Part shown: in pieces, positions 648 through 62,011 of the stretch
How the letters are laid out: every line of letters starts with the position of its first letter
Numbering within the stretch: position 1 is the stretch's first letter
From: Eledone cirrhosa
Lineage: Eukaryota
DNA length: 64,000 bases
Assembly (NCBI GenBank): GCA_964016885.1
Contig: OZ024741.1
Coordinates: forward strand, 193,936,001-194,000,000
Direction: 5' to 3'
Program-made: the position numbers and the translations under genes
The notes under the pieces: model-generated
What the model was told of the DNA's origin: nothing
Databases searched by the model: none
Seen by the model: only the letters and a program-made list of their open reading frames with translations

Positions 648-704
648 ATTATGGTTTTATAAATATAGTTTCCATTTATTAATATATTGTCTATATATAT
701 TGTA

Positions 705-2418
705 TATATATGTATTGCATGAGGTGGAGGTTGTTGTGTATGGACCTGGTCGGGATTGCACACGTTTGCGCTTTCCCGACCAGGCTTTCGACGACAAATG
801 CCAGCCTCGTTGCTAGCACCTTAGCCAAAATCTTTAACTCTATGTTGAGCAGAGTTATGGGCCTGATATTGTTTACCTCGACCTCATTGTTCTCGTCTTT
901 CCTTATCAGCGTTACTACGCCCTTGCCTGCAGAACTGGGAATTGTCCCGTTCTGCTGCCAACTGCAGTAGACGGCTTCGAGGACGCCAGAGAACAAGTCC
1001 GGCATGCCTATGTAAAACTCATAGGGTAGACCATCTAGACCGGGTGATTTGCGTTTCCCGCAGCGGACCAGAGCGTCCCGTATCTCAGTGTCTGTGATCG
1101 GTCTTTCGCAGAACTCGGTGCCCATGTTCGAGAGACGCGACAGGCCGTCGAGATATGAACCAAAGTCCATTGCCCCGTTGGGTGCACCCTCGTTCTGCTC
1201 AAACAGTCGCGCAAAGTGCTGCTGAAAGGCCGCGCACATTTGCTTGAGGTCAAGTAGCACACGTCCGTTTTGGTCTTTCAAAGACCGAATCGTGGACTTG
1301 TTGCCACTTTTCGCCTCCGCCACTCGGGCCCAGCTAACAGCTTTTGCTCCTTCGTTTCCTAGAGCACGTGATTTACTTCTGACCACACAGCCTTCGTGTT
1401 TCGCGTCGAAGAACTGGTCTAGTGCCTTTCTCGATGCTAGCACTCTAGCTACGTTGCCACTCCTAAACGCCTCCTCTACCTTGGCTACTAGTTCTGTTTC
1501 TATTTTGTTTTTCTCTAAAGCTAATTCTCTGCTAAACTCTATCGATTCTACTCTAATTGCTCTCTTGAGAGAGTACCACCATCTATTGTTGACGATGGCT
1601 CCCGTCAACTGTTGTTTAACTAATCTACTTATCCGTTCACTGTAGGCTTTACGTGCCGGCAACGACACGTTCAGCTTCCAGTATCCGAGTCCTTGTCTAT
1701 GTATTCTACCACGGTTGACTATGCAGACGACTAGTTTGTGATCTGAATAGGCAACCATGTGCATTTGTGGACAGCTTGACATTTTCTTGTCCCTCTCTCT
1801 AATGAAGAACCTATCTAAATACGATCTAGATGTCCCGCTGCGGTTTGCCCACGTCCACTGTGGTGCAGTCGGGAAATCCAGTCGATACCTATCGGCCAGT
1901 TGGAATTGGCCGATTAAATTTTTGAGGCTGTTGCATCCCCCTCTACTGGGACATGATCCTACATAGTCCCATCGTGCATCTAGGATAGCCTTCCAGTCCC
2001 CCACTAAAAGCAAGGAGCGAGATGTTCCTAGAAAAGGCTCTAGACGCTTAAAGAAATCTGGCCGCGATTGCCCGGTCGGGGCATAAACGGCCACCAGTTT
2101 GAAAGCTCCACCTCCAACACTGTTCACGTCTAGGACTACCAGTCTACCCTCTGGGTCCAAATGTACTTGCTGTACTTCGAGGTCCAGATTTTTCCGAAAC
2201 ATGACAGCTACTCCCCCTCCACCTCCTGGCTGACAGAGAGATGCGTAGATCTCAAAGTAATTGAAAATGGGGGTTAGCTGCTGCCTGTTGTGGATCCTGG
2301 ACTCGGTGATGGCTATCACATCCATATCGTGTGACCTAAGGTCGTTTAAAAGTTGGCCCTGTTTCCAGGGCATCCCTAGGCCACGCACATTCACACTTCC
2401 AACTCGTAAATTAGCTAT
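705..2418 (-). pseudogene. Tx1/L1 ORF2: apurinic-like endonuclease plus N-terminal part of reverse transcriptase, truncated
   Basis: NVRGL, VYAP, SYLDRFF, SDH, YWKLN, KSPGLDGLPYEFY and RPITLLN motifs. Breaks off into TA repeats at about 705. The likely start codon reads ATA at 2416-2418. Confidence 0.9.
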
Positions 2419-4300
2419 GTTGGTGGAGAAGAGTTGGCAAAAAAAAGGACGAAAAGATGCACTTACCTTTTCGTTTCCTGGAGATCGGGTTGTTCGATCT
2501 CTATTTGGGTGCTGGAGGAGTATTGTGTGGGGTGGGGAAACATTTTAACAGGTTGATTGGTTTCTGGCAGGGGTTGCCCACGTCCTGCGAAAATTCATTC
2601 TTCAGGTCACTATAGGTCTCTATAGAAACCCCTATAAGTTTAAGGTGTGGAGATGAATCCGCCTTCACAAAAGTTTTACCCTCGGTTTCCACCTTGGGGT
2701 TTTGGGAGATGACCTCCATTAAATTCTTGTTGGTGGTGTTGACGTATGCGTATTGTCTGTGTTTTTGTTGTGTTGCTTTTGTTTGTTGTTCGTTCGGGAG
2801 TTTTCTTTTTATGGTGGGTGCTTGTGTTTGGGGTGGTGTTGGTGTTGGTTTTGCTGGTAGGTGGATGTTTGACTGTGGTGTTGTTTGTGTTGTTGTTTGT
2901 GTCTGTGGTTGTGTGTTGGTGTTGGTGATTGGAGTTTTGGGGGTTTTGTGGTGTCTCTTTTTTATTTTATTTCCGAGGCTCTTCTTCTTCTTCACTTAAA
3001 GAAGGAGAAGAAGCCTCATCTGTCGATGAATAATCATCGTCAGGAGTGTGGGGTAGGGGTATGTTGTGTCGTGATGGTGTTTCGGTGTGTGTGTTTGTGG
3101 TAGTGTTTGATGGAGTGGGATGGGGTGGGGCTGTGTTCTTTAGGGGTGTTGTCTGTGTTTTTTCTGTTGTTGTTGGTTGAGTAGCTGTTTGTTTTGGTGT
3201 GTTTGCTTGTTTCGTGTGTTGTTGTTGTTATTGTGGTTGTTATGGTGGTTGTTTTGGTGTTGGTGTTGGTAACAGTATTTTCTTTTATAATGTTTTGTTT
3301 GAGCGTGTTTGTAAAGGGAAGGGGGCCTTTAGATGTGTGGTGCTATTACAACGAAAGCAATGTGGTTTTCATACTTCAACCGAAATGTTAATGTGGTTGC
3401 TGTTGTCACTAGGACGTCTTCGCGTATTTTGGAGATTCTCTCCGGCCTCATCTGCACCAGAATCTTCAAACTGGTACCCGCCTACCTTTGTCTGGTCAAC
3501 TTCCTGACCGAAAAAATTACGTCATTTTCTGGCTCCACGAACGCCGCCAAGATCCACCAGATGTTGATGTTTGGTGGTATACTGTTTTTTTTTTTTTTGT
3601 GTGTTCTTTTTCCCATATAAGTAGGGAAAAAGGTGTGTGTTTTCAAAATGATTGGCTGCACAGAATGCTTCTGTGCGAGGGCTTCGCTTTTAAAAAGTAC
3701 CGAAATACTTCCATACAATCTGCCCCTTTGCAGAAAATTGATGTTTTCCAAAGTCTCCTTCAAGGTGGCTTCAATTTCCTCTTAACTAAGGAAAACTGGC
3801 TTTCTTGTATTATTCGAGACAGTTCTGAAGGTTACTGTCCTTCGAACTGTTTCTCGTTTAATTTCCAAGGGTGAGTTTATTTGAAACCCACCCTTTTCTT
3901 TAAATGTTATAAATTGCTTCGCATCAGACATCTGTTTTGAATTGCTGATGTCCAACTCTTTATATTCTGTTTTGTTTATTACAGTCTGTGTGAATGTTGT
4001 TTTTTCAGTTTTGTTGTTGTTGGTTTTTTCATGTGTATTTGTGTGAGTTATTTCAATTTCTGTATTTTCTGTGTTTTTTCGTGTTTGTTGTGGGCTGTTA
4101 TTCTCAGCTTTTGTAGTGTAAATTCCTATTTCTTTACGAAGCGACGTTTTGTGTATGTCCGTTTCCATAGTTACTTCCATGCAGACAGAAGCAGATTTAA
4201 CGTTCATATCTGCCTTTTTCCCTCTCTTCTCGCTGTCAACGCTAGCCAGCGTTCTCTCTATGTCACACATTGTTACAGTTAGGAAATTTTAAGATTTTCA
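705..4300 (-). mobile_element. Tx1/L1-clade non-LTR retrotransposon, 3'-truncated and decayed
   Basis: Fragmented ORF1 (about 2460-4270) with a degenerate zinc knuckle (KPHCFRCNSTTHLKA, about 3320-3375), followed by an APE-RT ORF2. The 5' boundary is approximate. Confidence 0.85.
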
Positions 4301-11703: not shown

Positions 11704-12469
11704 ATGAATACGCCACATTTGCCAGCCATTACCGGAAACCCTAAGCTGTGGTTCGCCCAGCTACAGGCGTATTTTACGGTCTGTAAGACCGAGTCTGACC
11801 AGCACCTCGCTGTCTTGATTAGCGGACTTCCCCCTAATTTAGCAGATTCGGTCCAAGGCCTAGTTACAGACACCCCCCCCCCCCTCTGACTTAACGTATG
11901 ACTCTTTAAAAGGCGAGATATTGAGAAGGAACTGTAAATCGGTAGAGAGTCGTTTTCGGTCATTGATCGAGGACGAACGACTAGGTGACAGAACCCCTAC
12001 CGCTTTTCTCCGGCATTTGCGGGAATTGAGTGATTCCCAGGATCAGGATAGTCCTTTCCTGAAGCAATTGTTCTTCTCTCGCCTACCTCAAGCCCATATG
12101 CTAGAAGTAAATACCCTCGACCACATTGCTGTCTCTGCCGACAAAATAGTAGAAGTGACGAAGAGAGACACTTCGAACCAAAAGTACGTTGCTTCCTCTT
12201 CTCTTCCTCAATCACGCTCATCAGCGAGTGATGAGAAGTTAGTCAAAACAATGGAAGCCATGACTCGTCAAATGGCGGAGTTGTGCCAGGAACTCAGGTC
12301 TTTTGGACGGCAGAGGAGCCGCTCACTATCTTATTCAACTCCTCGCCACCGTAGCCCTTCCAAAACACCAAAACCACCATATTGTTATTACCATGACAAA
12401 TATGGTGACAAAGCCGCCCGTTGTAGGCCTCCTTGTGCTTACATGGGAAACGACGACCAGAGTCACTAA
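11704..12469 (+). pseudogene. gag: Gypsy gag (frameshifted at a poly-C run near 11880)
   Basis: NPKLWFAQL and LGDRTPTAFLRHLREL motifs, RS-rich linker, CYYHDKYGDKAARCRPPC zinc motif. Confidence 0.88.
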
Positions 12470-12508
12470 CGGCGGATAGTGCGCTCTGCGAAACATCATC
12501 CAACCGCC
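12445..12508 (+). promoter_or_regulatory. Programmed -1 ribosomal frameshift signal (slippery heptamer plus H-type pseudoknot)
   Basis: G GGA AAC in the gag frame, 6-nt spacer, stem cagagtcacta/tagtgcgctctg, loop ggcgg pairing with ccgcc at 12504-12508. The -1 frame is the protease frame. Confidence 0.85.
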
Positions 12509-15500
12509 ACTTTTTCATTGAGGACCTGCTATCAGGTAGAGCCTTTCTGGTTGACACAGGTGTAGCTTGTTCAATATGGCCTGTGTGTTGTATGAAGGAG
12601 ACTCCCCCTGAGTCACCTATCGAGTTGCAGGCAGTAAATTGTTCGCCGATTCGAACCTTCGGACAATCTCGCTACCTTTGCAGTTCCGTAATCTGCGGCG
12701 CGAGTTTAAATGGATATTTACTGTCGCTGCCTTGCCGTATCCGATTCTAGGCGCTGATTTTCTCCACCATTTTTCATTGACGGTGGACCTCCGTCGTAAG
12801 CGCTTAATTGATGGCATCACTGGTTTAACTGTTGTTGGCAAGGCAGCAGGAGTTCCAACGGTTAGCCCGACCTTTTTTCTTGCTAACACCGGCGATACCT
12901 ACCATGCGTTGTTGAACTCGTTCCCGCAACTGACTCAGGGAAATTTTCGAGTTGATGAGCCAACTCATACCACGGAGCACTTCATAACTACAACTGGTGC
13001 TCCCGTTTTTTCTCGTCCTCGTCGCTTGCCTCCGGACAAACTCAAAGCAGCACGATCAGAGTTTGATCATATGCTGCAGTTGGGGATTATTCGTCCGTCC
13101 ACGAGCCCGTGGGCGTCCCCATTACACATGGTACCGAAAGCGACTGGCGATTGGAGACCTACTGGAGATTATCGACGCTTAAATTCAATAACGGAACTGG
13201 ACCGTTATCCTATCCCTCATCTGCAAGACTTTGCGTCTTCGTTGCAGGGATGCAAGATATTCTCCAAACTGGATTTAATTCGTGCGTACCATCAAATTCC
13301 TGTCCATAAAAATGACATTCCAAAAACGGCTATAGTTACGCCATTTGGGTCATTTGAGTTTTTGACCATGCCGTTCGGATTAAGGAATGCCGCTAGTACG
13401 TTTCAGCGGTTTATGGATGAGGTTACTCGCGGCCTCGATTTCGTCTATACCTATATTGGTGACCTGCTCATTGTTAGTTCTTCTCAAGAACAACATACGT
13501 ACCATTTGAATCTTCTTTTCCGCCGATTGAAGGCGTATAACGTGCAGATTAATGCACCCAAATGTGTTTTTGGTGCTGAGTCACTGACTTTCTTGGGTCA
13601 CGTCATCGATGCTGACGGTATTCGACCCCGGCCTGAGCGAGTTAAGGTCATAGAGGATTTGCCTCCACCGACCTCACTACGTCAGTTACGCCAGTTCTTA
13701 GGTTTGATTAACTTTTATAGGCGTTTCGTGCCAAATTGTGCAAGATTGCTTTTCTCCCTGACAGAAATTTAAAAAAATTGTCGGAAGAAGAATGCAGACA
13801 TTTCTTTGACCGAGACTCAACTTGCTGATTTTCAGCACGCCAAAACTGCTTTGGCTAATGCCTCTTTTCTGGCTCACTCGGTACCCGGTGCAAAGCTAAC
13901 GCTTTGTGTTGATGCATCGGATATCGCTGTGGGCGCAGTGCTACAGCAAAACATCAATGGTTACCAGCAACCGCTGGAGTTTTTTTTCCAGGAAAATGAA
14001 ACCTGCTGAGACGCGCTACAGCACCTTTGGAAGGGAGCTGTTGGCCATCTATTTAGCCCTGAAACATTTTTCACATATGCTAGAGGGTAGACTATTTACT
14101 ATCCTCACTGACCATAAACCATTGACTTTTGCGTTGAGAGCGAAGGCTGATAAATACTCGCCCAGAGAGACGAGACACCTTGATTTCATCTCGCAATATA
14201 CGAATGATATCCAACACATTCCGGGTTCACTGAATACAGCGGCCGATGCTTTGTCCCGCTTACCTGTGACAGCGATTTCATCACCCTCTGACATAGATCT
14301 GACTCGTTTGGCTGCGGATCAGCCTCTCCTTGAGTCATTGGATGTTACATCGCCTGAGTTTGCGAATTGCAAGATGAAATACTTGCCTCTGTCGACTGCA
14401 GTTGGCCAAATTCTCTGCGACGTCTCTTTGGACGTGCCTAGGCCCTTCGTTCCAGAGAATCATCGTCGGACCGTGTTTCTGGCATTATATAGTTTCTCGC
14501 ATCCAGGATCTTCTGCCACAGTTAAACTCATATCAGCTAGATTTTTCTGGCCAAATATGAGGCGTGAAATTGCTGCTTGGTGCCGTTCCTGCGTCGCTTG
14601 CCAGAAATCAAAGGTCCATCGACACGTCAAGGCTCCCTTGGGTACCTTTACTAACCCAGATGCGCGTTTTTCGCACATTCATATTGATATAGTGGGACCT
14701 TGGCCTGTCAGCGACGGTTACTCTTATCTGCTGACCATAATTGACCGTTTTTCGAGATGGCCTTAAGCCATCCCCTTGAAAAACATCACCGCTGAGATAA
14801 CAGCGCGTGCTCTTGTGTCTGGATGGATCTCTCGTTATGGAGTTCCATCCACAGTAACTACCGACCGTGGACGACAGTTCGAGTCGAGCCTTTTCCTCGA
14901 ACTGTCAAAATTAATTGGTGCTAAACGCATCAGAACTACGGCGTACCATCGTGCTTCGAATGGTATGGTGGAGCGTTTTCACCGACAACTGAAGGCCTCC
15001 TTAATGGCCTCAATGGACTCGGCGCATTGGAGCGAGTACCTCCCTGTTGTGCTATTAGGGATTCGGTCAACGGTGAAGGTCGACTTTGGATTTTCACCGG
15101 CCGAAGTACTGTACGGTGCCCCTCTGACGTTGCCCGGGCAAATGCTTGCCCCTATCGATCTTGATGCCTAAGATCACGCTTCCTACGTGTCCCGTTTGCG
15201 CTCCTATTTCCAGGATTTGCCGCCAATGGACACTAGGAAACAAACTGTCAAGACTTCTGTCCCGAGGGATGTTGCCTCGTGGACGCATGTCTTTGTAAGG
15301 AAAGATTCTGTGAAGCCCCCGCTCACACAGCCTTACACTGGACCTTACCGTGTCTTAGCGCGCTCGGCTAAGCATTTCACTTTAGACATTAAAGGGTCCA
15401 GGGAGACAGTTACAATAGACAGGCTTAAGCAGGCACACCTGGACACGGACGCTGTGGTTCCTGATCCACGAACCCCTTCGTATTTGCCTGTTGAGCAAAC

Positions 15501-15627
15501 GCCTGTTCCTGAACCACCATCATCGCCTGTCCCTACACCACCACCATCGCCACGTTACAAGACCACGACCCGTTCAGGTCGTAGGGTCCACTGGCCCAAA
15601 CAATTTTGCAGCACCGTCTATATTTAG
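12445..15627 (+). pseudogene. pol: Gypsy pol (protease, RT, RNase H, integrase) with frameshifts and stops
   Basis: [25 protein letters not shown] (YIDD mutated), VDAS, LTDHKPL, integrase zinc-binding region, [20 protein letters not shown] and YTGPY. Stops at 14764 and 15169. Confidence 0.95.
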
Positions 15628-29811: not shown

Positions 29812-30034
29812 ATGCCCACCATTAAGATATCTGCTGATGATGTTACTAATATCACTATTGCTACAACCAATACCCTCATCCCAACCACTCCTGCCACCAA
29901 CAATAACAATAGCAACTCAGCTGAACAAGTAGCAGGTATCATCCAGGGTGAATCTGAAGACAACATCATAGTCTCTGTAAAACCTGGAATAAGAATTGGT
30001 GAAGATGAAAGATCTGTTCTTGAGATGGATAATG
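29812..30034 (+). CDS. DNAAF1: DNAAF1 putative first coding exon (MPTIKISADD...)
   Basis: ttcag|ATG acceptor and G|gtaaat donor (phase 1). In frame with downstream exons. The sequence itself is not conserved. Confidence 0.65.
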
Positions 30035-32106: not shown

Positions 32107-32495
32107 TGTATTACTGTTGAAAATATATAGTATAGTATTATTGTTGAAAATATATAGTACAGTACATTATTACTGTTGAAAATATATAGTATAGTATTAC
32201 TGTTGAAAATATATAGTATAGTATTACTGTTGAAAATATATAGTACAGTATTACTGTTGAAAATATATAGTACAGTATTACTGTTGAAAACATATAGTAT
32301 AGTATTACTGTTGAAAATATATAGTACAGTATTACTGTTGAAAATATATAGTACAGTATTACTGTTGAAAACATATAGTATAGTATTACTGTTGAAAATA
32401 TATAGTATAGTATTACTGTTGAAAACATATAGTACAAAATTACTGTTGAAATATGTAGTACAGTATTACTGTTGAAAATATATAGTATAGTACAG
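32107..32495. repeat. 27-bp minisatellite inside a minus-strand Helitron-like remnant (from about 32016)
   Basis: Unit tattactgttgaaaatatatagtatag, about 14 copies. 32025-32108 is the reverse complement of 39594-39688. Confidence 0.9.
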
Positions 32496-32782: not shown

Positions 32783-34840
32783 ATGAAATTAATGGTCAGT
32801 GTGAACCTGTTGGAGATAGTTTGAAGATAGTGGAAGCTGTTAGGAATTCTTCCAAGATAGCAGAATCTAAAGAATTAAAGTCAGTGGAAGCTGGTGATGA
32901 TGGTTTAAAGCGAGTGGAAGATGTTGGGGATTGTTCAAAGAAAGTGGAAGATGTTAGAGATAATTTAAAAGTGGCAGAATCTATTGGAGATAGTATGGAC
33001 TTAGTAGATAATGTTGGAGATTGTAAAGACATGGTAGATGGTGTTGGAAATCGTTCAAACACATGGAAAATTGATGGAAATGGTTTAGATACAGTGCGAG
33101 TTGAGAGAGATGGCTCAAAGGCTGTGGAAACTATTGGAAATGATTCAGAGGTTGTGGAATCTATAGGAGATAGTTCAAAGGTTGTTGAATCTATTGGAGA
33201 TGATTCAAAGGCTGTGGAATCTACTGGAGATGATTTAAAGCTAGTTGAATCTACTGGAGATGATTCAAAGCCTGTTGAATCTATTGGTGATGGTTCAAAG
33301 GCTGTTGAATCTATTAGTGATGGATTAAAGGCTGTGGAATCTATTAGTGATGGTTCAAAGGCTGTTGAATCTATTGATGATGATTCAAAGGCTGTTGAAT
33401 CTACTAGAGATGGTTCAAAGGCAGTTGAATCTATTGGTGATGGTTCAAAGGCTGTTGAACCTATTAGTGATGGTTCAAAGGCTGTGGAATCTATTGATGA
33501 TGGCTCAAAGGCTGTTGAATCTATTTCTGATGGTTCAAAGGCTGTTGAATCTACTGGAAATGATTTAAAGGTTGTTGAATCTAATGGAGATGGTTCAAAG
33601 GCTGTTGAATCTATTGGAGATTGTTCAAATGCTGTTGAATCTACTGGAGATGATTCAAAGGCAGTTGAATCTAATGGAGATGGTTCAAAGGCTGTTGAAT
33701 CTATTGGAGATTTTTCAAATGCTGTTGAATCTACTGGAGATGATTCAAAGGTTGTTGAATCTAATGGAGATGATTCAAAAGTTGTTGAATCTACTGGAGA
33801 TGGTTCAAAGGCTGTTGAATCTATTAGTGATGGATTAAAGGCTGTGGAATCTACTGGAGATGATTCAAAAGTTGTTGAATCTACTGGAGATGATTCAAAG
33901 GTTGTTGAATCAAATGGAGATGGTTCAAAAGTTGTTGAATCTACTGGAGATGATTCAAAGGCTGTTGAATCTACTGGAGATGATTCAAATGCTGTTGAAT
34001 CTACTGGAGATGGTTCAAAAGTTGTTGAATCTACTGGAGATGATTCAAAGGCTGTTGAATCTAATGGAGATGGTTCAAAAGTTGTTGAATCTACTGGAGA
34101 TGGTTCAAAGGCTGTTGAATCTACTGGAGATGATTCAAAGGTTGTTGAATCTACTGGAGATGGTTCAAAGGCTGTTGAATCTATTAGTGATGGATTAAAG
34201 GCTGTGGAATCTACTGGAGATGATTCAAAGGTTGTTGAATCTAATGAAGATGGTTCAAAAGTTGTTGAATCTACTGGAGACGGTTCAAAGGCTGTTGAAT
34301 CTATTGGAGATTGTTCAAATGCTGTTGAATCTACTGGAGATGATTCAAAGGTTGTTGAATCTAATGGAGATGGTTCAAAAGTTGTTGAATCTACTGGAGA
34401 TGGTTCAAAGGCTGTTGAATCTACTGGAGATGATTCAAAGGTTGTTGAATCTAATGGAGATGGTTCAAAGGTTGTTGAATCTATTGGAGATTGTTCAAAT
34501 GCTGTTGAATCTACTGGAGATGATTCAAAGGCAGTTGAATCTAATGGAGATGGTTCAAAAGTTGTTGAATCTACTGGAGATGGTTCAAAGGCTGTTGAAT
34601 CTATTGGAGATCGTTCAAAGGCTGTTGAATCTACTGGAGATGGTTCAAAGGCTGTTGAATCTATTGGTGATGGTTCAAAGGTTGTTGAATCTATTGGTGA
34701 TGGTTCAAAAGCAGTGGAATCTACTGGAGATGGTTTAAAGACAAAAGAAGTTGTTCAAGATGGTTCAAAGACAGTGGAATCTAAGGAAATGACTACAAAC
34801 ACTTTGGATGACACACAGAAGAATGCTGCTAACAATAACG
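32783..34840 (+). CDS. DNAAF1: DNAAF1 putative giant exon encoding acidic decapeptide repeats (AVESTGDGSK-like)
   Basis: ttcctctttcag acceptor, G|gtaatt donor, phase 1-1, 686 open codons. 54 in-register 30-bp units at 33121-34740. Confidence 0.72.
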
Positions 34841-38526: not shown

Positions 38527-38617
38527 TTACTGGTGTGGGAGCCTGTAAGAAGGAAAAGAAAGATGAACCATCACATGTGAATTCTACATTTGGTAGACTG
38601 GATGAAAAATGGCCAAG
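38527..38617 (+). CDS. DNAAF1: DNAAF1 exon (VTGVGACKKE...DEKWPR)
   Basis: ctag acceptor and AG|gtaaaa donor, phase 1-2. Supplies the PR that precedes the conserved LTKKFL. Confidence 0.8.
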
Positions 38618-41983: not shown

Positions 41984-42075
41984 ATTGACCAAAAAATTCC
42001 TCCGTCAGCACTGTAAGGAGGCCAAACTATATCAAACACCTGAGCTTAATGATGTTCTGTATTTACACTATAAAG
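41984..42075 (+). CDS. DNAAF1: DNAAF1 exon ([31 protein letters not shown])
   Basis: cag acceptor and G|gtgagt donor. Matches the DNAAF1/LRRC50 signature CK..KLY.TP.LND.LYLH.KG. Confidence 0.96.
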
Positions 42076-48393: not shown

Positions 48394-48563
48394 CATGCTT
48401 GCCCCAACTCTCAACTCTACAAATGATCCACAACAAACTGTACAGTTTAGAATCTATAATCCACCTCAAAGATTGTTTAGCCATTAGTGTGTTAGATCTT
48501 TCACATAATCGACTGGAACAACCAGAAATTGTGGAAGAGGTGTTTGCCAAAATGCCTTCCTTG
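48394..48563 (+). CDS. DNAAF1: DNAAF1 LRR exon (SCLPQLSTLQMIHNKL...VLDLSHNRL...MPSL)
   Basis: tacag acceptor and gtttgt donor, phase 1-0. Conserved LRR. Confidence 0.95.
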
Positions 48564-49186: not shown

Positions 49187-49833
49187 AATGCAGTTGGGTT
49201 CTATGGAAGTGGTTAATAGCTTCCGGTACCTAGGTGATCAAATTAGCATGGAAAGGGGGTGTTCTGAGGCCATAGTATCTAGAATAAGGACGGGTTGGAA
49301 GAAGTTTAGGGAGCTGCTTCCTCTGTTGATAAAGAAGGGTTTCTCCCTGCGTATGAAAGGCCAGTTCTATGATGCCTATGTGAGGTGCGCGATGCTGCAT
49401 GGTAGTGAGACATGGGCAGCAACTACAGAGAATATGCGACGGCTGGAGAGAAATGAGGCAAGCATACTTTGTTGGATGTGTAATGTCAATGTGCATAAAC
49501 GACCAAGCATAGATGAGTTGAGAGAGAAACTGGGTATAAAAGGGATAAGTTGTGGTGTGCAGGAGAGAAGACTGAGGTGGTATGGATATGTGAGGCACAT
49601 GGAGGATGACCGCTGGGTAAAGAAGTGTCAATAAATCCCAGTAGAAGGAAGACGCAGTAGAGGAAGACCACAAAAAAACACGGGCGGAGGTGGTGAGAGC
49701 AGACCTCAGATCGCTGAAACTCACGGAGGAGATGACGAAGGACCATGACAAGTGGAGAGATGCTGTGCTGAATAGGACCCGTCCCACCTTTGCAAGCAGG
49801 GAAAAGCGGATGTAAAATGATGATGATGATGAT
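49187..49833 (+). mobile_element. RTE LINE 3' end
   Basis: 148-aa ORF with FRYLG, HGSETW and RRLRWYG, and an (ATG)n tail. Confidence 0.92.
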
Positions 49834-49917: not shown

Positions 49918-50836
49918 AAATTGGAAATAGCATAGAAAATATATTTAAGGATCTGTTTTTCTTTTTTTTTTCCTTTCTTTGATTCGTCAAAGTGACATTA
50001 TTGAAAAAAATGAGAGGGACAATTTATAATATATATAAAGTTTAACCGGTTTCGATGAGTTCACATCCCGTCGAGGTTAACTTTGCCTTTCATCCTAATG
50101 GGGGTCGATAAAATAAAGTATCAGTAATACACTGGGATAATTGCTGGCCTTGTGCCTATTGTAGAAACAATTATTAAACTTCATCTTATCAAATGTTGAG
50201 TATTACAATTAAAAAGAATTAATAAGAATTAAAAACTAAAAATTAAAGACTAATTTTGAAAGCCACCACTGATGCTTTGCTCTAAAATTAAGTGTTGAGG
50301 CAAGTTTTTTTCATCTTCCTTGTTGAGAAAGAGACTGGAAAAATGAACTCTTGTGTATAGAGAGAGAGGTGTGTAGTCATGATAGTAGCAGCAGTGTTGG
50401 TAGTTGTGTTTTTTCACACAGAACAAAATTGTTTTTAGGGAGGGGATTTTCTGTGAATATGTGTGTGTATCTCAATTGTGTTAATGGACTGGTCAAGAGT
50501 TCAGATGGGGTGGCGAGGGGGGGGGGATTGTAAGCTAGAGACAAATTCTATGGGTGAGGGAGGTAAATGGGATTGGCAAAAGTAGGGTTGTAAAAGAAAT
50601 TTTATTTTTGGAATATGGTTTTAGAGATTGTGTGTGCGTGTGAGAGTGTATATATAAAAATACGTGTGGGGGGGGGGGGGGCTTCAGCCTGTCTGTCACA
50701 GATCCCTTTGTGGTGGGAATTTAAAAAAAAAAACAGAGCAAAGCATCAGTGGTGGTTTTCAATCAGGAATTTTTTGAAAATATGTGTATGAGCAATTTTT
50801 TTCTTATTTCGTGGTGTTTTCATATATATATGTATA

Positions 50837-51738
50837 TACGAGATGTGTCAGAAAAGTTCCAGGACTGATGTCACAAAAGATCTATTTCATACCCAAACTT
50901 CACACTAAGAGTTTTCTCCTTCAAAGTAATCCCCCTGGAGTAGGTAACTGTAATCTTAACTTTCTACAGCGATCAAACTTTTTTCTTCTTAATTTTATAT
51001 ACATGTCCTCTTTTTCAGGTCGTCTAGCAATGAGCACAGACCAACGAAAAAACTTGAAAACTCCGTCAGAAGCACTGGGATTGCTGCAGCAAGTGTATGG
51101 AGATGAGACGATGTCACGCTCACGTGTTTTTGAGTGGTGGAAGAGGCTTAAAGAAGGACGCGAGGACGTGGAAGATGATCCCAGGAGCAGAAGGCCCTCA
51201 ACAACCAGGACTGAGGTCAACGTTGAGCGCGTCAGGCAGATCGTGCGTAGCAGTCGTCGGCTGACTGTTAGACTGATGGCAAATGAGCTGGGCATGAATC
51301 GGGACAGCGTCTGGAAGATTCTCACTGAAAATTTGGACATGTGGAAAGTCTGCGCGAAGATGGTCCCAAAACTGCTGAACGATGACCAGAAGGGTCGACG
51401 CATGTAAGTGTACCAGGACATCCTCGAGCGTCTTGAAACCGAACCAGACTTGCTAAGGACAGTCATGACCGGTGATGAGTCATGGATCTTCGAGTACGAC
51501 CCGGAGGAGACCCATTTTGAAGACGTGGACAACATCAAAAAAGGCCCGTGACGACGGAACTGCAGAGGATCCTGGAAGAATCCTTCCAGGAGTGCATGCA
51601 AGCATGGCAGAAAAGGATGGAAAAGTGCATTAGACTCCAGGGGGATTACTTTGAAGGAGAAAACTCTTAGTGTGAAGTTTGGGTTTGAAATAAATCTTTT
51701 GTGACATCAGTCCTGGAACTTTTCTGACCCACCTCATA
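50837..51738 (+). mobile_element. Internally deleted mariner transposon with about 105-bp inverted ends
   Basis: TA-flanked TIRs. HTH region (MSRSRVFEWWKRLKEG), AKMVPKLL, TGDESWIFEYDPE and C-terminal GDYFEG are present. Most of the catalytic core is missing. Confidence 0.93.
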
Positions 51739-52315: not shown

Positions 52316-52390
52316 AGTGTTCTATATTTGATGGGGAACCCTGTCATCAGAAACATAAAGAATTACAGGAAACACCTTACTGTAACAATT
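52316..52390 (+). CDS. DNAAF1: DNAAF1 exon (SVLYLMGNPVIRNIKNYRKHLTVTI)
   Basis: tttgcag acceptor and gttagt donor, phase 0-0. LRRcap motif GNPV...NYR. Confidence 0.95.
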
Positions 52391-53454: not shown

Positions 53455-53519
53455 AAAAACTTGAAATATCTGGATGATCGACCAGTTTTTCCGAGAGACC
53501 GTGCTTGTGCTGAAGCATG
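53455..53519 (+). CDS. DNAAF1: DNAAF1 exon ([22 protein letters not shown])
   Basis: Signature [17 protein letters not shown]. gcag acceptor and gtaggt donor. Confidence 0.97.
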
Positions 53520-56226: not shown

Positions 56227-57260
56227 ATCATCATCATCATCATCATTTTACGTCCGCTTTTCCCTGCTTGCAAGGGTGGGACGGGTCTTATTCAGCACAG
56301 CATCTCTCCACTCGTCACGGTCCCTCGTCATCTCCACCGTGAGCTTCAATGATCTGAGGTCTGTTCTCACCACCTCCGCCCATGTTTTTCGTGGTCTACC
56401 TCTACCACGTCTTCCTTCAACTGGCAATTCCTGGCACTTCTTCACCCATCGGTCATCCTCCATGCGCATCACATGTCCATACCACCTCAGTCTCCTCTCC
56501 CGTACACTACATTCTATCCCTCTCAGACACAGTTTCTCTCTCAACACATTTATGCTGGGTCGTTCACGCATGTTTACACTGCACATCCAACGGAGCATGC
56601 TTGCCTCATTTCTCTCCAGCCGTCGCATATCCTCTGCGGTTGCTGCCCATGTCTCACTACCATGCAGCATCGCGCTCCTCACACAGGCATCATACAACCG
56701 GCCTTTCGTACGCAGGGAGAAACCCTTCTTCGTCAACAGAGGAAGCAGCTCCCTAAACTTCTTCCAACCCGTCCTTATTCTAGATACTATGGCCTCGGAA
56801 CACCCTCCTCCCATGCTAATCTGATCTCCTAGGTACCGGAAGCTATCCACCACTTCTATAGCGCCCTCTCGCATTTGAAAAATGTGTCTATCAGTGCGAC
56901 TTCTACTGTCTAATTTCCCTGTACATCTACTGCATACATATTTCTCCCTACCTGTTAGTTTGCCTGCTATCCCGCTACATCTCTTGTGTACCCAGGACCT
57001 GCATTGTGTGCATTTTATAGAATTTATGCCAGTTCCTTTTCTGCATATCGAACATGGCCATTTCCCTGACGGAATCAGGGTTTTGTCCTCTTTTCTACTC
57101 ATCAACACTTTTGTCTTAGCTAGATTTACTCTCAGTCCTCTTGCTTCCAACTGCTGTTTCCATAGCCGGAATTTATTCTCTAGCTCCTCTACTGATTCTG
57201 CTATAAGAGCCAGATCGTCAGCATAGAGAAGTTCCCATGGACAGCCAGTCTTAAACTCCA
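56227..57260 (-). mobile_element. Young 5'-truncated RTE LINE with open ORF (RT C-terminus with PHD-like Cys/His insert)
   Basis: Uninterrupted ORF of at least 300 aa from LYADDL to the stop, with an (ATG)n tail. Confidence 0.95.
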
Positions 57261-57301
57261 GCTTGACTATATTAATAAATGGAAACTATATTTATAAAAC
57301 C

Positions 57302-57821: not shown

Positions 57822-57907
57822 GGCCAAAGGTGGATTAGAAGCAGAGAAATTAGAACGACAAATTTGGATTGATAAAGAAAGAAGAAAAATTCAAGACAGT
57901 GTGGATG
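57822..57907 (+). CDS. DNAAF1: DNAAF1 exon (AKGGLEAEKLERQIWIDKERRKIQDSVD)
   Basis: gacag acceptor and G|gtttgt donor, phase 2-1. Conserved coiled coil GG..AE..ER..W...ER.KI.DS. Confidence 0.95.
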
Positions 57908-61640: not shown

Positions 61641-62011
61641 CTCTGATGAAGATTCGGCAAAAGAGTGAGGCGAAGAGAATTCAGAAGAAACTGGATGGAG
61701 AATGGCAGGAACGAGGAGATGCAGACAATAATCAAAGAGAAGTTGTTATTGAGGAAAGTATTGACTGGTTGTATGGAACATACAAGACTGAATGGGTTGA
61801 TATAAAGGAGAGAGAGAAGAAAGATGAGGAAAAGGTAGAGAAAAAGGAAGGAAATGAAGGAAACACAACTGAACTGAATCAAAAAGATGGAAGAGAAGTT
61901 GTGGAAGAGAAAATAGATGAATGTACAGAAGTAGATAAAGATATTCAAGAGGAGAAAAGTATGGAAGAACAACAGAGTAAAAATGTGGAAAAGAAGAAAG
62001 AGGTAGAGTAA
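61641..62011 (+). CDS. DNAAF1: DNAAF1 exon (ALMKIRQKSEAKR..., Glu/Lys-rich). 3' end uncertain: donor at 62003 or 62008, or stop at 62011
   Basis: tatag acceptor in phase 1 gives DSVD-ALMKIR, continuing the conserved helix. Confidence 0.85.

What the first reader, a model, noticed from the sequence alone, without database searches (positions are those of the whole stretch)
32783..34840. DNAAF1 carries a 686-codon exon of decapeptide repeats ahead of its LRR domain
Seen: good splice sites, phase 1-1 symmetry (skippable without frameshift), no stop in 2058 bp, and 54 consecutive 30-bp units without an indel. Variants recur in higher-order blocks (ISDGLK, IGDCSN) and divergence rises toward both ends. 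Including it gives about 1150 aa against about 464 aa without it, if the gene ends at 62011. Known: the DNAAF1 N-terminus is normally short and poorly conserved. Inference: a lineage-specific coding VNTR that adds a large acidic, Ser/Thr-rich disordered tract to a dynein assembly factor, possibly isoform-specific and length-polymorphic.
Basis: partly seen in the sequence, partly recalled or inferred. Interest (0 to 1): 0.75.

Follow-up and report, generated by a model that had tools for sequence, protein, structure and literature searches.

The report
Octopus DNAAF1 acidic repeat exon
An octopus gene for a protein that helps build the motors of cilia carries an extra, intact 686-codon stretch of ten-residue repeats that a second octopus also has; it likely lengthens a floppy acidic tail, and such tails have grown by unrelated repeats in many other animals, so the case is real but fairly ordinary.

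Summary
32783-34840 is open, bounded by AG/GT, phase 1-1, with 64 units of 30 bp in register. It lies between coding exons 1 and 3 of a DNAAF1 (LRRC50/ODA7) gene. The Octopus bimaculoides model XP_014788744.1 has a homologous tract (35 units, 375 aa) at the same place with alignable ends, so the segment is likely a real, ancestral octopod exon whose array was re-expanded here. Corrections: the gene runs 24 kb past the window (15 coding exons; 1327 aa with the exon, 641 without, not 1150/464). Phase symmetry says little (5 of 13 internal exons are symmetric). The antisense frame is nearly as open. Amino-acid changes are close to neutral; the frame and the acidic make-up are kept. Repeat growth is habitual in DNAAF1 tails: 61 of 332 homologues carry arrays, with unrelated units in sharks, salamanders, primates, salmonids and insects, and all 51 N-tails over 200 aa are acidic. 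No RNA run was listed, so splicing, skipping and length polymorphism are untested. AlphaFold gave no confident fold. Verdict: likely a tolerated expansion of an acidic disordered tail; a new member of a known kind.

The parts
29812..30034 (+). DNAAF1 first coding exon (ATG directly after an acceptor AG, so an untranslated exon likely lies upstream, not located)
   Evidence: 53% identical to the O. bimaculoides N-terminus
32783..34840 (+). Repeat exon, 686 codons, phase 1-1; net charge -91; acceptor at the 98th and donor at the 81st percentile of local AG/GT sites
   Evidence: both ends align with O. bimaculoides P0002
32884..33153 (+). Nine old, diverged units (7-14 differences from the core consensus), still in 30-bp register
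33154..34743 (+). Young homogenised core, 53 units, consensus VESTGDGSKA, 0-6 differences per unit
34744..34840 (+). Two diverged units and the unique 3' end of the exon, alignable with O. bimaculoides
32796..34754 (-). Antisense open frame of 652 codons; by-product of the repeat unit, used as a control
38527..38617 (+). Coding exon 3, ends at the start of the conserved core
41984..42075 (+). Coding exon 4, conserved pre-LRR segment
43167..43388 (+). Coding exon 5, LRR core (Pfam LRR_4); also phase 1-1; one match in the genome search
48394..48563 (+). Coding exon 6, LRR
52316..52390 (+). Coding exon 7
53455..53519 (+). Coding exon 8
57822..57907 (+). Coding exon 9
61641..62002 (+). Coding exon 10, start of the acidic C-terminal tail; donor after 62002. 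Five further exons lie beyond the window (G000:C2 194009360-194009462, 194015840-194015905, 194019437-194019480, 194022558-194022635, 194023704-194023952)

Best explanation
The segment is an open, splice-bounded array of 30-bp units inside an octopod DNAAF1 gene, shared with Octopus bimaculoides, and it is likely a routinely included exon that lengthens an acidic, probably disordered N-terminal tail ahead of the LRR domain. Shown: anatomy, gene model, homologous tract in a second octopus, different copy number and homogeneity in the two. Inferred: a 10-codon unit multiplied in an octopod ancestor; slippage or unequal exchange keeps copying blocks of units, and in this lineage a young core of 53 units replaced or displaced the older array. 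Selection likely removes frameshifts and stops, because the LRR lies downstream, and tolerates most residue changes and large length changes. The tail would act as a flexible acidic spacer or solubility and chaperone-like surface during dynein pre-assembly, whose exact sequence does not matter; the folded LRR does the specific binding.
For: O. bimaculoides P0002 (1298 aa; same sequence in NCBI RefSeq, UniRef and EukProt) has 35 units in 375 aa between the same flanking exons, with both exon ends alignable; the core is 87% identical (251 of 287). Unit identity is 0.75 within this core, 0.38 within O. bimaculoides and 0.39 between species: turnover with recent homogenisation. Distinct core variants are 18 residue-changing and 9 silent against 61:24 possible, near neutral. 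Charge per residue is alike in both (-0.131, -0.155) and close to the family median for N-tails (-0.11; 248 of 260 tails of 40 aa or more are net acidic). 21 of 332 homologues have N-terminal and 40 have C-terminal arrays with unrelated units. AlphaFold mean pLDDT 37 and 38. DNAAF1 is described as an interaction module with large unstructured regions (PMC10835030, passages read; PMC12633730, passages read).
Against: No transcript was seen: inclusion rests on a gene model of another species whose RNA support I could not view. Without the exon the protein is 641 aa, the size of other mollusc DNAAF1s (620-660 aa), so skipping would give a normal-looking protein; the donor is middling (81st percentile). 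Within-genome tests are weak (P about 0.02-0.04) and the antisense frame has only 1 stop where about 3 are expected. Both AlphaFold models place one beta-strand per unit, with pLDDT 52-59 over residues 161-240. The survey is redundant (isoforms, close species), saw only proteins of 713 aa or more, and no control family was run.
Confidence: 0.68

Rival explanations
1. Regulated cassette exon: a long isoform (1327 aa) and a short one (641 aa) are made in different tissues, for example sperm against epithelial cilia, and the tract tunes partitioning into dynein assembly foci or binding to partners.
For: Phase 1-1; skipping gives a protein of normal mollusc size; middling donor; catshark DNAAF1 has 19 RefSeq isoforms of different length, and those measured differ in the N-terminal tail.
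Against: 5 of 13 internal exons are symmetric; the acceptor is strong; only one O. bimaculoides protein, with the tract, came up. The catshark isoforms could be alignment artefacts within a repeat.
Confidence: 0.17
2. The decapeptide folds or assembles as a beta-solenoid or beta-serpentine, one strand and one turn per unit, and gives octopod DNAAF1 a new structured surface.
For: Both models show a strand in most units; V1, E2, D6 and K9 are the commonest residues in both species and the 10-residue period is kept.
Against: Mean pLDDT 37-38, pTM about 0.3, no residue above 70; no PDB match at E <= 0.001 (best 0.82); near-neutral residue change; Pro in 11 of 35 units at position 8 in O. bimaculoides; 34% charged residues.
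Confidence: 0.07
3. An intronic minisatellite that is open by chance and is not spliced in.
For: The unit has no stop in two of six frames; this region holds many arrays (23 in 324 kb); no transcript seen.
Against: Homologous open tract with matching ends in O. bimaculoides while units diverged to about 40% identity; no frameshifting indel where 3.3 are expected; strong acceptor.
Confidence: 0.08

Closest known systems
Octopus bimaculoides LOC106882542 (XP_014788744.1, UniRef100_A0A0L8FLP4), annotated 'uncharacterized protein'
   Same: Orthologue; 87% identical core; homologous 10-residue tract at the same place with the same ends and similar charge.
   Different: 35 old, Cys-rich units (20 Cys; within-array identity 0.38) against 64 units with a young core (6 Cys; 0.75). 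Its C-terminal tail is longer.
DNAAF1 / LRRC50 / ODA7 of human, Chlamydomonas and zebrafish (PMC5886296, passages read; PMC12633730, passages read)
   Same: LRR core, 63% identical to the human protein (168 of 268); long acidic tails. The human C-terminal 'Pro-rich' region holds a 26-residue acidic array that is longer in orangutan.
   Different: Human N-tail is 85 aa against 788 aa here; the array lies before the LRR, not after it, and the units are unrelated.
N-terminal arrays in DNAAF1 of catsharks (Scyliorhinus, 8/16- and 82-residue units), other sharks (79-83), salamanders (46, 100), toothfish (17) and a bee (65)
   Same: Acidic tandem arrays ahead of the LRR; the short catshark unit has a similar make-up (E, S, G, A, V, T).
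   Different: Unrelated unit sequences (no BLAST hit to the octopus tract), so independent origins are inferred; these are gene models too.
Coding tandem-repeat exons under concerted or birth-and-death turnover, such as the filaggrin repeat exon (PMC5225520, search listing and start of abstract only); mucin PTS domains (recalled)
   Same: One large exon, copy number that differs between species, homogenised core with diverged ends.
   Different: Here the host is a cytoplasmic assembly factor, and no function of the repeat is known.

Membership tests
DNAAF1 (LRRC50/ODA7) | LRR domain with best matches named DNAAF1 | tested here: met
   Nearly all named rows of the 120 listed are DNAAF1; Pfam LRR_4; core 63-67% identical to human, Aplysia and Solemya.
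DNAAF1 (LRRC50/ODA7) | Intact, single-copy gene | tested here: met
   15 exons, all AG/GT, one final stop; 1 match among 18 candidates scored in the genome.
DNAAF1 (LRRC50/ODA7) | Role in cytoplasmic dynein arm pre-assembly; binds RUVBL1/IFT88 | not testable with these tools
   Known for human DNAAF1; inferred here by orthology.
Coding VNTR | Head-to-tail units of a length divisible by three within an open exon | tested here: met
Coding VNTR | Copy number differs between species | tested here: met
   64 against 35 units.
Coding VNTR | Copy number differs between individuals | tested here: inconclusive
   Only contigs of one sample were available; none spans the core, no indel or joint listed.
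Coding VNTR | Exon present in mature mRNA | not testable with these tools
   Supported only by the O. bimaculoides model.
Intrinsically disordered acidic region | High charge, few aromatics, no confident fold | tested here: met
   34% charged, 2 aromatics in 685 aa; mean pLDDT 37-38. Shallow alignments lower pLDDT by themselves, so this is supportive, not proof.
Alternatively spliced cassette exon | Frame-preserving symmetry | tested here: met
   Phase 1-1, but shared by 5 of 13 internal exons.
Alternatively spliced cassette exon | Both inclusion and skipping transcripts | not testable with these tools
   No skip form among the proteins listed (weak).
Beta-solenoid repeat protein | Confident solenoid model with a structural match | tested here: not met
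   pTM about 0.3; no PDB match at E <= 0.001.

The most novel reading that the evidence does not exclude
DNAAF1 tails are a recurrent, selected tuning device: octopods, sharks, salamanders, primates, salmonids and insects each lengthened an acidic tail by unrelated repeats, and in octopods the whole addition sits in one skippable exon that switches dynein pre-assembly (for example entry into assembly foci in sperm-forming cells) between a long and a short form, perhaps with the decapeptide folding into a beta-solenoid when bound or phosphorylated (68 S/T-x-x-D/E sites).
Probability: 0.12. Interest if true: 0.7.

Novelty: new member of a known kind. Interest (0 to 1): 0.33.

Why it matters
For annotation: it corrects the gene (15 coding exons, 1327 aa) and identifies the 'uncharacterized' O. 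bimaculoides protein as DNAAF1. For cilia biology: the role of disorder in dynein assembly factors is an open question (PMC12633730). DNAAF1 tails that vary from under 100 to nearly 800 residues while staying acidic suggest that charge, not sequence or length, is what is kept. The octopod exon is a natural, modular reagent for tail-swap rescue tests. I found no paper on repeats in DNAAF1 tails, but King 2024 on disorder in these factors was not held and may cover part of this.

Tried and rejected
RNA: no RNA holder listed; the three runs laid are contigs of one sample that cover introns and cannot show splicing. Other cephalopods: only O. bimaculoides came up in three homology searches and the representative search, so the age of the exon beyond these two octopods is open. 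The repeat exon as query found 2 weak unnamed or hypothetical hits among 7463 candidates (its length limit excluded P0002) and a Pfam PMG hit with no stretch passing on its own: rejected as compositional. A second copy of the array elsewhere in the genome: none (the search skips common words). Regular higher-order repeat: rejected. Stop at 62011 as the gene end: rejected, though read-through of the weak donor (67th percentile) could give a short form. Indel test over all 64 units: the aligner made compensating gaps in the diverged ends, so I used the core only and dropped 6 of 22 background arrays below 80% match; one of the 16 kept may itself be coding. Fold search on a low-confidence model: nothing significant. 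Earlier scan notes: none for this locus or its relatives. No supplements were read.

Full report
Observation. The stretch 32783-34840 is 2058 bp, preceded by a pyrimidine-rich AG and followed by GT, and open in the frame set by the upstream exon. TRF reports 54.5 copies of a 30-bp unit with 86% matches and no indels. In register there are 64 units from 32884 to 34803: nine old ones, a core of 53 with consensus VESTGDGSKA, and two old ones. The window holds no N, and contigs of a public run match both ends of the exon and its flanking introns without a gap (possibly the same sample, so not independent). Recurrent variants reflect irregular block copying: the longest exact block is 101 bp, reached by 11 of 1000 shuffles, with no preferred lag.

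Gene. Ten coding exons lie in the window. The LRR exon finds DNAAF1 proteins, best of all an Octopus bimaculoides protein at 89%, and has one match in the genome. The organism is therefore an octopod; I did not determine the species. Neighbouring DNA holds five more exons with AG/GT ends that join in frame through a donor after 62002. The protein is 1327 aa with the exon and 641 aa without; the N-terminal tail is 788 or 102 aa.

Is it coding? Evidence from this genome alone is modest. Random mutation of the consensus to the divergence of the 11 end units leaves no stop in 2-4% of trials, but the antisense frame, also open for 652 codons, has 1 stop where about 3 are expected. Sixteen neighbouring arrays of at least 80% match carry 20 frameshifting indels per 168 distinct substitutions, which predicts 3.3 in the core against 0 seen, P about 0.04 (6 of 22 background arrays dropped). 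The acceptor ranks at the 98th and the donor at the 81st percentile of local sites (a matrix from this gene's own sites). The stronger evidence is comparative. O. bimaculoides XP_014788744.1 has a 375-aa tract of 35 ten-residue units between the same flanking exons, and both ends of the exon align. The same sequence stands in RefSeq, UniRef and EukProt. It is a gene model: I saw neither its DNA nor its RNA support. No transcript of this organism was seen.

How it evolves. Units are 75% alike within this core, 38% within O. bimaculoides and 39% between species. The array is thus old, and this lineage re-expanded and homogenised it. Among 27 distinct core variants, 18 change the residue and 9 are silent, against 61 and 24 possible (the one scored as a stop sits in a doubly changed codon that reads Ser). 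That is near neutral. The six differences inside the exon seen in low-depth contigs of the one sample all change the residue, none to a stop; two lie in the core and may be misplaced. Charge per residue is -0.131 here and -0.155 in O. bimaculoides. So frame and make-up persist while sequence and length drift (inference).

Family context. Of the proteins fetched, 332 had a near-complete core. The median N-tail is 85 aa; 51 exceed 200 aa and all 51 are net acidic, as are all 293 C-tails over 200 aa. Twenty-one have N-terminal arrays: the octopus, 2 salamander, 16 shark, 1 toothfish and 1 bee protein, five lineages. Forty have C-terminal arrays, among them primates (26 residues), salmonids and pike (10), pipefishes, snails and insects. 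The short catshark unit is made of the same residues as the octopus unit but shows no BLAST similarity. Limits: the set is redundant, favoured long proteins, new repeats inherit acidity from the tail they copy, and no control family was run. The octopus tail is among the longest seen (3 of 332 are 790 aa or more) but not unique.

Structure. AlphaFold gave mean pLDDT 37.0 for the exon alone and 37.8 for 200 residues with a six-row alignment; no residue passed 70. Both models draw a strand per unit, best over residues 161-240 (52-59). Foldseek found no match at E <= 0.001. Disorder is the better reading; a solenoid is a weak lead.

Mechanism. [quoted passage not shown] The likeliest account is that a minisatellite arose in or beside the acidic N-tail of an octopod ancestor and has been kept in frame because the LRR lies downstream, with the tail acting as a sequence-tolerant acidic spacer (confidence 0.68). 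A regulated cassette (0.17), a folded repeat (0.07) and an unspliced intronic array (0.08) are the rivals. Phase symmetry does not favour the cassette: 5 of 13 internal exons are symmetric, the LRR core included.

Novelty. Searches for DNAAF1 with tandem repeat, VNTR, octopus and cephalopod found nothing on this (listings only), nor did. King 2024 on disorder in these factors could not be read. Coding repeat arrays in disordered tails are a known kind. The locus is a new member; the family-wide recurrence of acidic arrays is the more interesting by-product. Interest 0.33.

Noticed in passing
Homologues P0152-P0160, P0009, P0020, P0133-P0149, P0182: DNAAF1 tails carry unrelated acidic tandem arrays in many lineages; the primate 26-residue C-terminal array spans about 98 aa in human and 235 aa in orangutan and may be a coding VNTR in a ciliopathy gene.
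   Followed up: partly
G000:C2 about 193855770-193857550 (80 kb upstream of the window; loci L023/L022): A 15-bp array of 121 copies with open frames of 646 and 663 codons on the + strand (Ala/Thr-rich or Ser/Thr-rich); may be another coding repeat.
   Followed up: partly
window 11864-15627: Ty3/gypsy-type retrotransposon (gag-like, protease, reverse transcriptase, RNase H, integrase motifs recognised from recall), broken by stops and frame changes.
   Followed up: no
window 691-2544 (-), 56248-57285 (-), 49188-49634 (+): LINE-type endonuclease and reverse transcriptase fragments, two of them inside DNAAF1 introns (motifs recalled).
   Followed up: no
window 50778-51407 (-): Mariner-like transposase fragment in a DNAAF1 intron (recalled).
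   Followed up: no
window 32108-32492: A 27-bp AT-rich non-coding minisatellite (14 copies, with indels) 290 bp upstream of the repeat exon.
   Followed up: partly
window 62003-62011: The weak donor after 62002 is followed by an in-frame stop three codons on; read-through would give a form lacking most of the C-terminal tail.
   Followed up: no
G000:C2 about 193917956-193923772 (L016): A 310-bp satellite of 19 copies at 99% identity 12-18 kb upstream of the window.
   Followed up: no
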